This document shows, one piece after another, positions 364 to 1,524 of a stretch of DNA of 9,005 nt. The number at the start of each line of letters is the position of its first letter. Position 1 is the first letter of the stretch. Origin of the DNA: a virus (Duplodnaviria > Heunggongvirae > Uroviricota > Caudoviricetes); the IMG/VR virus record IMGVR_UViG_3300014919_000042; one strand, written 5' to 3'. The notes beneath the pieces were generated by a model, which saw only the letters and a list, made by a program, of their open reading frames with translations, had not been told where the DNA came from and did no database searches. A program made the position numbers and the translations under genes.

Positions 364-595
364 ACAGAACGAAAAATCTATCGCTCAAATTGCTGAGTAT
401 ATCCCGCGTGCGTGCCGGGATATGCAGTTGCAGGAAGCCAAAGCACGCCTGGAGAAAAAAATTGCGCTCTATATCGATGACGGCTGTGATGCCGCCGTTC
501 TTAACGCGGCGTTCGCGCCAGCTCTTAACAGTCATACGCGAAAGTCTTTTTTTTCGTGCATCGCAGCGCAGATCCGTAAAGGAGGCAACCAGTGA
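356..595 (+). CDS. Hypothetical small phage protein (79 aa)
   Basis: ATG at 356 preceded by GAGGTG. Stop TGA 593..595 overlaps the GTG start of the next gene. Confidence 0.55.
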   Translation: MFKQNEKSIAQIAEYIPRACRDMQLQEAKARLEKKIALYIDDGCDAAVLNAAFAPALNSHTRKSFFSCIAAQIRKGGNQ

Positions 596-1524
596 GCAAC
601 ATTAACTATCAGGTACTGCGTGAAAAGGCAGAGAAAGCAACTAAAGGAAGCTACATCGTAGGGCATACATCTGTTAACCAACACGGCAATTTAACAGGAG
701 TTTTTGTTTGTCAAAAATGGAAAGGAGAACCCGGTGGCGTAATTGCAGAATGTCACGTTAACTGCCTGGTTGAAACAGATGCTCAGGCTTATGCAAACGC
801 TGAATTCATAGCAGAGGCTAACCCGGCTACCGTGCTGGCACTGCTGGATGAACAGGAANNNNNNNNNNNNNNNNNNNNNNNNNNNNNNNNNNNNGAGGAT
901 ATTGCGCTTACGGTTGGGAGGCTGCGCGTTGAGCTGGAAGGCAAAGACAGCAAAATAGCCAATCTTACCGCCGAACGCGATGCTCTTCGTGAAGGTGAGA
1001 TGGGCGACGCTAGGCATAGCAACACACGGGCCGCAGCTGATATCTACTTCCAACTGGTCGAGGAATGCGAAATTCCTGCTGGCGGATCTCTGGTCGAGTA
1101 CGTTGACGATATGCGCGAGAAGCTGGAAGCCGCAGAGAAGCGCATTGCAGAACTGGAAGCACGGGAAATAAAACCAGCCAAAGGCGAAGTTCTTGTCGTT
1201 GTTTCTGGTTTTACTGGTTGCGGAAAAAGCGCCATCGCCGGGGAAATAGAAATCGCGATGAAGGCTATTGGTGTACCGGTTCAGTGGACTAATGGCGATG
1301 TGGAAAAGCGCATGACAGGAGCTGACTGGCTGACAGCGATTGAGATGTACAAACCAACAGTGCGCATCGTGGAAGTTAATGTGCCACGCGCCCCCGGCAT
1401 TCGCCTCAAAGGAGAGAGAGAATGCAAATTTCACCGGTTACTCTTCGTGTTGCGAAGGCGTTTATATCCAGACATCACCGACACAATAAACCCCCGGTGG
1501 GGCATAAATTCAGCATTGGTCTGA
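592..1524 (+). CDS. Ea22-like (ead/Ea22 family) prophage protein with central coiled coil; interrupted by a 36-nt N run; true 3' end uncertain
   Basis: GTG start 6 nt after a strong RBS AAAGGAGG (578..585). N-terminal segment ...AYANAEFIAEANPATVLALLDEQE resembles the conserved N-terminus I recall for Ea22-like proteins. Central region is charged and heptad-like (LRVELEGKDSKIANLTAERDALR ... REKLEAAEKRIAELEARE). A Walker-A-like GFTGCGKS lies at 1207..1230. The last 103 nt overlap the next gene out of frame. Confidence 0.6.
   Translation: MSNINYQVLREKAEKATKGSYIVGHTSVNQHGNLTGVFVCQKWKGEPGGVIAECHVNCLVETDAQAYANAEFIAEANPATVLALLDEQEXXXXXXXXXXXXEDIALTVGRLRVELEGKDSKIANLTAERDALREGEMGDARHSNTRAAADIYFQLVEECEIPAGGSLVEYVDDMREKLEAAEKRIAELEAREIKPAKGEVLVVVSGFTGCGKSAIAGEIEIAMKAIGVPVQWTNGDVEKRMTGADWLTAIEMYKPTVRIVEVNVPRAPGIRLKGERECKFHRLLFVLRRRLYPDITDTINPRWGINSALV
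859..894. other. Run of 36 N (assembly gap or masked bases) inside the Ea22-like CDS
   Basis: 36 consecutive n characters. The reading frame is open and consistent on both sides if the gap is a multiple of 3. Confidence 0.99.

What the first reader, a model, noticed from the sequence alone, without database searches (positions are those of the whole stretch)
592..1524. Ea22-like coiled-coil protein with a C-terminal Walker-A-like motif
After the heptad-like central region the protein has VLVVVSGFTGCGKSAIAGEIEIAMKAIGV (1207..1230 encodes GFTGCGKS). This is a G-x4-GK[ST] motif in the usual strand/P-loop/helix context of kinase-type NTPases. Fewer than 100 residues follow, with no obvious hhhhD/E Walker B, so this is either a degenerate or truncated NTPase module or a chance match. 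I do not recall a P-loop being a described feature of Ea22-like proteins.
Basis: seen in the sequence. Interest (0 to 1): 0.5.

Follow-up and report, generated by a model that had tools for sequence, protein, structure and literature searches.

The report
Mini P-loop domain on Ea22 protein
The Walker-A motif at the end of this prophage Ea22-like gene is real: it is the core of a conserved, undescribed ~70-residue "mini P-loop" module that phages of many Proteobacteria carry alone or fused to other proteins, but whether it binds nucleotides is untested.

Summary
ORF 592..1524 is an Ead/Ea22-family gene (Pfam 88.6 bits) in the early-left arm of an E. coli lambdoid prophage inserted in mlrA, and 1207..1230 encodes GFTGCGKS.

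The motif is not a chance match. Window 1180-1395 is an autonomous ~70-aa module found in 440 clusters (50% identity). It occurs at the end of Ea22 coiled coils, inside other mosaic phage proteins, and as stand-alone 68-95-aa proteins. Hosts are Alpha-, Beta- and Gammaproteobacteria, and it occurs in isolated phages (phiV10, D6, BcepC6B, jumbo Ralstonia phages).

Walker A Gly/Lys/Ser are about 100% conserved, as is a Glu ending the last strand (VRIVE, Walker-B-like). dN/dS is 0.06-0.23.

My reading: a minimal phosphate/nucleotide-binding head displayed on the Ea22 stalk. Binding and function are inferred.

The last 35 codons of the ORF are read-through. A private TGA->AGA change at 1417 removes the normal stop.

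The parts
592..1524 (+). Ea22-like ORF as it reads in the window (310 aa, GTG start). Relatives stop at 1417-1419.
592..858 (+). N-terminal Ead/Ea22 domain. This is one mosaic variant; it differs from the N-terminus in the nearest genome, CEA601S.
   Evidence: phrog_6389, E 3e-50
859..894 (.). Run of 36 N. In relatives, 39 nt here encode the conserved RNQQYIKRRDQEN stretch. Frame is preserved.
895..1179 (+). Coiled-coil stalk. It includes a 63-residue insert (940-1128) that is absent from short alleles such as strain 20Y000092. The length equals the 63-aa segment that PMC10834534 reports as absent from lambda Ea22; I did not align the two sequences.
1180..1395 (+). Mini P-loop module (K197-P268): extended segment, Walker A, helix, extended segment, two short helices, extended segment ending in Glu.
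1207..1230 (+). Walker A motif GFTGCGKS. Lys212 = 1225-1227, Ser213 = 1228-1230.
1357..1380 (+). Last extended segment, TVRIVEVN. The invariant Glu261 (1372-1374) is a Walker-B-like position.
1396..1419 (+). Gene-boundary linker GGCATTCGC(A>C)TCAAAGGAGAG(T>A)GA, encoding GIR(I>L)KGE followed by the lost stop. AAAGGAGAG also serves as the ribosome-binding site of the next gene.
1417..1524 (+). Read-through tail (35 codons plus stop) created by TGA->AGA at 1417. It overlaps the XF1762 gene in another frame and is not part of the family's protein.
1422..1949 (+). Downstream XF1762-family (Mom-like) gene. Its own stop (relatives: 1911-1913) is also lost in the window. It also follows Ea22 genes that carry other C-terminal modules, so it is not a specific partner of this module.

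Best explanation
The gene is a mosaic Ea22-family early gene of a lambdoid prophage. Its exchangeable C-terminal cassette (window 1180-1395) encodes a self-contained ~70-residue domain built around a genuine, invariant Walker A P-loop. The domain corresponds to the first third of a kinase/SIMIBI-type P-loop NTPase: strand, P-loop, helix, second strand. It is closed off by two short helices and a last strand ending in an invariant Glu.

Proposed mechanism (inferred):
- The P-loop Lys/Ser, together with the conserved acidic residues Glu46 and Glu69 (model numbering), hold the phosphates and Mg2+ of a nucleotide or another phosphorylated ligand.
- The domain lacks the lid, the base-recognition elements and strands 4-5 of real NTPases. 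It therefore probably acts as a binder or switch rather than a fast enzyme.
- In this protein the Ea22 coiled coil displays several copies of the domain. Ea22 proteins studied so far are tetramers.
- This is taken to help modulate host physiology early after infection or induction, as other Ea22 C-terminal domains are thought to do.

Shown here: family membership, domain autonomy, conservation, purifying selection, phage context, partial P-loop likeness.
Inferred: ligand binding, oligomeric display, biological role.
For: Ea22 identity and prophage context.

Autonomous module:
- 440 clusters at E <= 1e-3 and 343 at E <= 1e-10.
- Found C-terminal, N-terminal or internal in unrelated proteins.
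- Found as stand-alone 68-95-aa proteins.
- Stand-alone genes sit in phage early or accessory regions.
- Hosts span Alpha-, Beta- and Gammaproteobacteria.
- Present in isolated temperate and jumbo phages.

Conservation (sequence-weighted):
- G17, G19, K20, A22, G25, I27, G35, E46 and E69 at 100%.
- G14 and S21 at 98%.
- Walker A is kept at 35-40% identity in jumbo-phage homologues.

Selection: dN/dS 0.06-0.23.

P-loop homology:
- Of 101 members, 76 hit AAA_16, 68 hit AAA_18 and 60 hit APS_kinase (best E 8.7e-6). Most of the 25 families listed (of 43 hit) are P-loop NTPases.
- NCBIfam adenylyl-sulfate kinase E 0.0044; MinD, Mrp and gluconokinase weaker.
- PDB profile hits are UvrA, ArsA, gluconate kinase and CysC, plus a non-P-loop HasAp hit of similar strength.

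Structure:
- Two independent AlphaFold2 models with pLDDT 88.9 and 88.7. In both, the helix starts at the Walker Lys.

Literature: Ea22 proteins are an N-terminal region, a coiled coil and a variable, portable C-terminal domain. Full-length proteins are tetramers (PMC7093339, PMC10834534).
Against: - No nucleotide-binding or activity data exist.
- Every hit of this protein to a P-loop family is below the curated cut-off (APS_kinase 16.2 bits against 21.1), and covers only about 40 residues.
- Foldseek finds no PDB match (E > 5).
- DSSP calls no beta-strands in either model, so an intramolecular P-loop sheet is not demonstrated.
- The strands alternate hydrophobic and polar residues (VTVTV, V-x-I-x-E). 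This differs from the buried core strands of three-layer NTPases.
- There is no classical hhhhD Walker B, no arginine finger and no lid.
- The module is acidic (mean net charge -2.2, median pI 5.2).
- No conserved neighbouring gene or informative fusion partner points to a pathway.
Confidence: 0.6

Rival explanations
1. Pseudo-NTPase or mimic. The P-loop is kept for folding or for docking, and the domain works purely by protein-protein contact. For example, it could imitate the N-terminal face of a host SIMIBI/kinase-type P-loop protein, or dimerise through its exposed sheet face, without binding any nucleotide.
For: - The domain is too short for a complete NTPase core, and fold searches find no full match.
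- No strands are paired in the monomer models, which could mean the sheet forms only with a partner.
- The strand patterns are amphipathic and the surface is acidic, like other Ea22 C-terminal domains that are thought to bind host proteins (PMC10834534).
Against: In my experience (general knowledge, not tested here), pseudo-NTPases usually lose the Walker Lys/Ser. Here G17, G19 and K20 are 100% conserved and S21 98%, together with the acidic residues E46 and E69.
Confidence: 0.2
2. True enzyme. Two or four modules, brought together by the coiled coil or by self-association, complete each other's sheet and active site. They would form a working NTPase or small-molecule kinase, with Glu261 as the catalytic or Mg2+-binding Walker B residue.
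For: - The Glu at the end of the last strand is invariant, as is the E-K pair after strand 2.
- The best sequence likeness is to small-molecule kinases: APS kinase and gluconokinase.
- Ea22 C-terminal domains are dimeric and full-length proteins tetrameric (PMC10834534).
- Much simpler engineered P-loop polypeptides are reported to show phosphoryl-transfer activity (PMC10119929, title and abstract start listed; paper not read).
Against: - No lid, no substrate-binding region and no arginine finger.
- Stand-alone and internally embedded versions lack the coiled coil.
- No oligomer model could be computed here.
Confidence: 0.15
3. Chance motif, or a recently truncated remnant of a larger kinase gene left behind by mosaic recombination. 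In that case it would have no function of its own.
For: - A bare GxxxxGK[ST] motif is expected by chance in about 1% of proteins of this size (my estimate).
- The region is highly mosaic.
- Similarity to kinases stops after about 40 residues.
Against: - The whole 70-residue unit, including the non-kinase second half (EK..T.ADW...Y.P.V.I.E), is conserved across three proteobacterial classes and in jumbo phages.
- It exists as an intact stand-alone gene.
- dN/dS is 0.06-0.23.
Confidence: 0.03

Closest known systems
Lambda Ea22 and the Ead/Ea22-like family (Pfam PF13935; PMC7093339, PMC10834534)
   Same: - Same conserved N-terminal start and coiled-coil stalk, with the ERNQQYIKRRDQEN stretch in relatives.
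- Same genomic place, in the early-left exo-xis region upstream of xis and int.
- Same K/R-G-E C-terminal tail in relatives.
- Same mosaic plan with an exchangeable C-terminal domain.
   Different: - The C-terminal domain is unrelated to the lambda CTD solved by NMR. The paper's description of the three Stx-phage variants (V1-V3) mentions no P-loop, though I did not compare their sequences.
- None of the three Ea22 papers read mentions a P-loop.
- Only 15 of 5,426 complete E. coli genomes carry this cassette.
Small-molecule P-loop kinases, especially adenylyl-sulfate (APS) kinase CysC (PF01583)
   Same: The first ~40 residues align: hydrophobic strand, GxxGxGKS, helix, G-hydrophobic strand, then an N/D-G-D-like turn. 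One member, P0303, carries a precomputed PF01583 hit.
   Different: - Only profile positions 3-40 of 152 are matched, and this protein scores below the cut-off.
- There are no strands 4-5, no lid and no substrate site.
- The second half of the module is family-specific.
SIMIBI-class NTPases (MinD/ParA/Mrp-Cfd1, ArsA/Get3, SRP54/FtsY, dethiobiotin synthetase)
   Different: - There is no deviant Walker A signature Lys and no switch regions.
- The module is about a quarter of their size.
Engineered 'P-loop prototype' polypeptides (PDB 6c2u/6c2v 'phosphate-loop protein'; bioRxiv 10.1101/2020.07.30.228619; PMC10119929) and the de novo designed ATPase PL2x4_2 (9jix)
   Same: Comparable size and the same idea: a Walker A loop in a minimal beta-alpha scaffold, reported to bind phosphorylated ligands. 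There are weak profile hits (E 0.62 and 0.94).
   Different: Those are laboratory constructs. This is a natural, widespread and strongly constrained phage domain, acidic rather than basic, with unknown ligand.

Membership tests
Ead/Ea22-like family (PF13935) | Profile match above Pfam's gathering score | tested here: met
   88.6 bits against a cut-off of 27, residues 2-189, full profile 1-139. RefSeq names the orthologue in CEA601S 'ead/Ea22-like family protein'.
Ead/Ea22-like family (PF13935) | Located in the early-left (exo-xis) accessory region of a lambdoid prophage, upstream of xis and int | tested here: met
   ORF order Ea22, XF1762, DUF551 proteins, DUF4222, xisR, integrase (4067-5353), mlrA.
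Ead/Ea22-like family (PF13935) | N-terminal region, coiled coil, variable C-terminal domain, ending in K/R-G-E | tested here: met
   This architecture is seen in the window and in L001-L003. KGE is encoded at 1408-1416, but the stop after it is mutated in the window. The architecture is described in PMC7093339.
Ead/Ea22-like family (PF13935) | Tetrameric, pro-lysogenic protein | not testable with these tools
   Known only for lambda, Phi24B and P27 Ea22 (PMC7093339, PMC10834534).
P-loop NTPase superfamily | Walker A motif GxxxxGK[ST] | tested here: met
   GFTGCGKS at 1207-1230. Sequence-weighted conservation: G17, G19 and K20 100%; G14 and S21 98%. Kept in 145 of 147 representative hits and in 100 of 102 distant hits; the other two of those have A instead of the first G.
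P-loop NTPase superfamily | Motif lies between a beta-strand and the N-terminus of a helix | tested here: inconclusive
   In both AlphaFold2 models the helix begins at the Walker Lys. The preceding VLVVVS is non-helical at pLDDT >= 90, but DSSP assigns no strand or ladder.
P-loop NTPase superfamily | Walker B: hydrophobic strand ending in Asp or Glu | tested here: inconclusive
   T-V-R-I-V-E with a 100% conserved Glu. The strand alternates polar and hydrophobic residues, and its position next to strand 1 is not shown.
P-loop NTPase superfamily | Complete three-layer alpha/beta core (five or more strands) recognisable by fold comparison | tested here: not met
   [not shown]
P-loop NTPase superfamily | Significant match to a curated P-loop family profile | tested here: not met
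   For this protein the best is APS_kinase at 16.2 bits against 21.1. No NCBIfam hit comes near its cut-off. Across members, hits are consistently to P-loop families (best E 8.7e-6) but cover only about 40 residues.
P-loop NTPase superfamily | Binds and hydrolyses NTP | not testable with these tools
   Needs biochemistry.
Adenylyl-sulfate kinase (PF01583 / CysC) | Full kinase domain (~150 aa) with lid and APS-binding region | tested here: not met
   Only profile positions 3-40 of 152 align. Only about 62 residues follow the GKS in relatives.

The most novel reading that the evidence does not exclude
This is a natural, autonomously folding ~65-70-residue Walker-A protein family, among the smallest P-loop units known to me. 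Phages would use it as a ligand trap or switch. For example, it could sequester a nucleotide-type signal (an alarmone, a cyclic-nucleotide immune messenger or an NTP), either alone or displayed multivalently on the Ea22 stalk. It would then be both a new class of phage host-modulating protein and a living counterpart of the engineered 'P-loop prototypes' used to model the origin of NTPases.
Probability: 0.15. Interest if true: 0.8.

Novelty: new variant of a known kind. Interest (0 to 1): 0.45.

Why it matters
Ea22 is one of the few exo-xis proteins reported to push lambdoid and Shiga-toxin phages towards lysogeny, and how its exchangeable C-terminal domains act is unknown. A C-terminal domain with an invariant phosphate-binding loop offers a concrete, mutable handle (K212, E261) and a testable ligand hypothesis.

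Independently, a widespread ~70-residue natural P-loop domain is relevant to how little scaffold a Walker A loop needs. Until now that question has been addressed mainly with engineered polypeptides.

The family has no Pfam or NCBIfam model, and its PHROG families are of unknown function. Defining it would also remove misleading automatic names such as 'adenylylsulfate kinase-like', 'uridine kinase' and 'Mrp family ATPase'.

Tried and rejected
- **afdb50 fold search:** the library was not available.
- **Foldseek against PDB:** nothing usable. BFVD gave one probable family member.
- **Covariation (mean-field DCA) on 248 module sequences, to test strand pairing:** the effective number of sequences was only 55. 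Top couplings (for example T16-V72) look like subfamily signal, so the result is not used as evidence.
- **Conserved neighbouring gene across 14 loci:** none found. The only link is that the C-terminal part of BcepC6B gp37 resembles the gene upstream of the stand-alone module in a B. gladioli prophage.
- **Pfam on fusion partners and extensions:** no informative domain.
- **PADLOC defence models:** no hit.
- **Rfam on the window:** no hit.
- **Exact search for the window's stop-loss allele:** absent from IMG/VR and JGI metagenomes. The normal allele was found 3 times.
- **XF1762 as a specific partner:** rejected, because it also follows Ea22 genes with other C-terminal modules and a non-Ea22 gene.
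- **Nucleic-acid binding, as in the engineered P-loop prototypes:** considered unlikely because the module is acidic.

Full report
**Context.** The window is the left arm of an E. coli lambdoid prophage. It holds a run of small early genes on the + strand, then excisionase and a tyrosine integrase (4067-5353), then the host genes mlrA (yehV) and yehW/X/Y. ORF 592..1524 matches Pfam Ead_Ea22 over residues 2-189 (88.6 bits, cut-off 27). Its orthologue in the nearest complete genome, strain CEA601S, is annotated 'ead/Ea22-like family protein'.

**The observation.** The 3' end is not the family's normal end. From 895 onwards the window is identical to CEA601S except for six substitutions. Three of them (1395, 1405, 1417) lie in the last 25 bases of the Ea22 gene and three (1906, 1909, 1911) at the end of the next gene. 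The change at 1417 turns the normal TGA into AGA, and the change at 1911 turns the next gene's TGA into GGA. The last 35 codons of the window ORF are therefore read-through in a frame overlapping the XF1762 gene (start 1422). All relatives end ...GIRIKGE. The stop-loss allele was not found in 5,426 complete E. coli genomes, where the best matches all carry the six differences. It was also absent from IMG/VR and JGI metagenomes, whereas the normal allele was found there. It is either private to the source strain or an error. The 36-N gap replaces 39 nt in CEA601S, so the frame is kept.

**The motif is part of a conserved, autonomous module.** I searched residues 197-275 with HMMER against 1.84 billion cluster representatives. 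This gave 440 clusters at E <= 1e-3 and 343 at E <= 1e-10. The matched stretch is always the same ~70 residues. Its position varies:
- C-terminal to Ea22-type coiled coils in enterobacteria;
- C-terminal, N-terminal or internal in long mosaic proteins of high-GC bacteria, with no recognisable Pfam partner;
- alone, as proteins of 68-95 residues.

Three stand-alone genes were inspected and all lie in phage or prophage early regions. One example is a Burkholderia gladioli prophage, a few genes upstream of a Lar-like gene, a DUF4224 gene (which I take to be the excisionase) and the integrase. Carriers include Gamma-, Beta- and Alphaproteobacteria. Isolated phages that carry it include phiV10, D6, JL22, O157 typing phages 9 and 10, Yersinia fHe-Yen8-01 and Burkholderia BcepC6B gp37. 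At 35-40% identity it also occurs in the ~225-kb Ralstonia/Burkholderia jumbo phages (RSF1, RSL2, FLC), where it sits inside 347-421-aa proteins. In E. coli the cassette is rare, present in 15 of 5,426 complete genomes.

**Conservation.** The consensus is V.V.VSG..G.GKSA[IV].GEIEI...A.G..V.W.....EK..T.ADW..A.E.Y.P.V.I.E.N. With sequence weighting, G17, G19, K20, A22, G25, I27, G35, E46 and E69 are 100% conserved (numbering of the 83-residue model; add 192 for ORF residues). G14 and S21 are at 98%. The Walker A motif survives in the jumbo-phage homologues as GRTGVGKS. Between enterobacterial alleles dN/dS is 0.06-0.23. This rules out a chance motif and a decaying remnant.

**Is it a P-loop?**
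- *Sequence.* No Pfam or NCBIfam model covers the module, and its PHROG families are of unknown function. Sub-threshold hits are remarkably consistent. Among 101 members scanned one by one, 76 hit AAA_16, 68 AAA_18, 60 APS_kinase (best E 8.7e-6) and 41 a STAND NTPase model. Most of the 25 listed families (of 43 hit) are P-loop NTPases.
- *Extent.* The alignments cover the first ~40 residues only: strand, P-loop, helix and second strand.
- *Structure.* Two AlphaFold2 runs gave the same confident picture (pLDDT 88.9 and 88.7, pTM 0.75). One used the window's module and one the 69-aa stand-alone protein, each with a 101-sequence alignment. Both show an extended segment, a loop, a 14-residue helix beginning exactly at the Walker Lys, another extended segment, two 8-residue helices, and a final extended segment. 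DSSP assigns no beta-ladder in either model.

My reading is that the module has a P-loop-like strand-loop-helix unit and derives from the N-terminal part of a kinase/SIMIBI-type NTPase. It is not a complete NTPase fold, and how its three extended segments pair, within one chain or between chains, is unresolved.

**Walker B.** The last segment, T-V-R-I-V-E-V-N (1357-1380), ends in the invariant Glu (1372-1374). That is what a Walker B would look like with Glu in place of Asp. However, both this strand and the first one alternate hydrophobic and polar residues across the family (VTVTV; V-x-I-x-E). This fits a two-layer sheet with one open face rather than a buried NTPase core.

**How it most likely works.** Shown:
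- a strongly constrained mini-domain;
- an intact Walker A and conserved acidic residues;
- carriage by phages in early or accessory regions;
- in this gene, attachment to an Ea22 stalk.

Inferred:
- The loop binds the phosphates of a nucleotide or another phosphorylated ligand, with Mg2+ held by Ser213 and Glu261 (and possibly Glu238). My estimate for phosphate or nucleotide binding is about 0.6.
- Lacking a lid, base-recognition elements and strands 4-5, it acts as a binder or switch rather than a fast enzyme.
- The coiled coil presents several copies. Lambda and P27 Ea22 are tetramers with dimeric C-terminal domains (PMC10834534).

Rivals are a nucleotide-free mimic or docking domain (0.2), a real enzyme completed by oligomerisation (0.15), and chance or remnant (0.03). 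The acidic charge of the module (net -2.2, pI 5.2) matches what was reported for other Ea22 C-terminal domains. It argues against nucleic-acid binding of the kind shown for engineered P-loop polypeptides.

**Comparison with what is known.** The protein is a member of the Ead/Ea22 family by every feature testable here. Its C-terminal domain is a type not described in the three Ea22 papers I read, which never mention a P-loop, Walker motif or kinase. It works like, but is not a member of, the P-loop NTPase families: the full-fold and profile-threshold tests fail. The nearest analogues in size and concept are laboratory 'P-loop prototypes' (PDB 6c2u/6c2v; papers listed). Automated pipelines have already noticed the loop, giving names such as 'ATP-binding protein' and 'adenylylsulfate kinase-like enzyme'. 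The motif itself is therefore not unseen. What is new is its definition as a distinct, widespread mini-domain and as an Ea22 C-terminal domain type.

**Verdict.** This is a real feature: a new variant of a known kind, of moderate interest. The function is unproven, and the ORF's 3' extension should be disregarded.

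Noticed in passing
window 1396-1419 and 1890-1913; also L001-L004: The same ~24-nt sequence GGCATTCGCATCAAAGGAGAGTGA (GIRIKGE, then stop) ends the Ea22 gene, the XF1762 gene and unrelated genes in other prophages. It is followed within 2 nt by the next gene's ATG. AAAGGAGAG is a Shine-Dalgarno sequence for the downstream gene. This could explain the conserved '+GE' C-terminal tripeptide of Ea22 proteins, whose significance PMC7093339 calls unknown: it would be a translation-coupling or recombination linker at DNA level rather than a protein-function motif.
   Followed up: partly
window 1395, 1405, 1417 and 1906, 1909, 1911: All six differences from the nearest complete genome over more than 4 kb fall inside the two linker copies, and each cluster removes a stop codon (TGA->AGA, TGA->GGA). 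This could be an assembly or consensus error in a short repeat or a real private allele. The allele was not found in any other collection searched.
   Followed up: partly
window 859-894: The 36-N run sits exactly on the Ea22 stretch RNQQYIKRRDQEN (39 nt in relatives), which is shared by the Ea22 alleles compared here (L001-L003, L009).
   Followed up: yes
window 5354-6075: The prophage is integrated inside the 5' part of mlrA (yehV). From memory of the MlrA sequence, native residues resume at about ...[23 protein letters not shown] (about 5390 onwards), and the reading frame upstream is phage DNA. From my own knowledge, insertions at this site (for example Stx1 prophages of O157:H7) are known to impair curli regulation.
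   Followed up: no
window 940-1128: A 63-residue insert in the coiled coil (GKDSKIANL...DDMREKLE) is absent from short alleles (L002). The length equals the '63 amino segment' that PMC10834534 reports in Stx-phage Ea22 variants but not in lambda; I did not align the sequences. It contains a non-heptad stretch (GEMGDARHSNTRAAADIYFQLVEECEIPAGGS).
   Followed up: partly
window 1915-2364 and 2345-3313: Two neighbouring ORFs share short repeated modules (SLEAEPIAW / SLEAEPVAW, and L[FY].APPVP). The second ends in a DUF551 domain. This is more evidence of cassette shuffling in the region.
   Followed up: no
L024 (BcepC6B gp37, 2414-3013) and L005 5099-6004: The C-terminal half of BcepC6B gp37 follows the mini P-loop module in that protein. 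It is homologous (57% over 86 aa) to part of the separate gene just upstream of the stand-alone module in a B. gladioli prophage. This is a fusion/fission link to a domain of unknown function.
   Followed up: partly
literature: Variovorax phage VarioGold VG_p38 (PMC9658991): A 98-aa ORF annotated 'P-loop ATPase family' lies in the early region of this phage, a few genes from an Ead/Ea22-like gene. It may be another stand-alone member of the module family.
   Followed up: no
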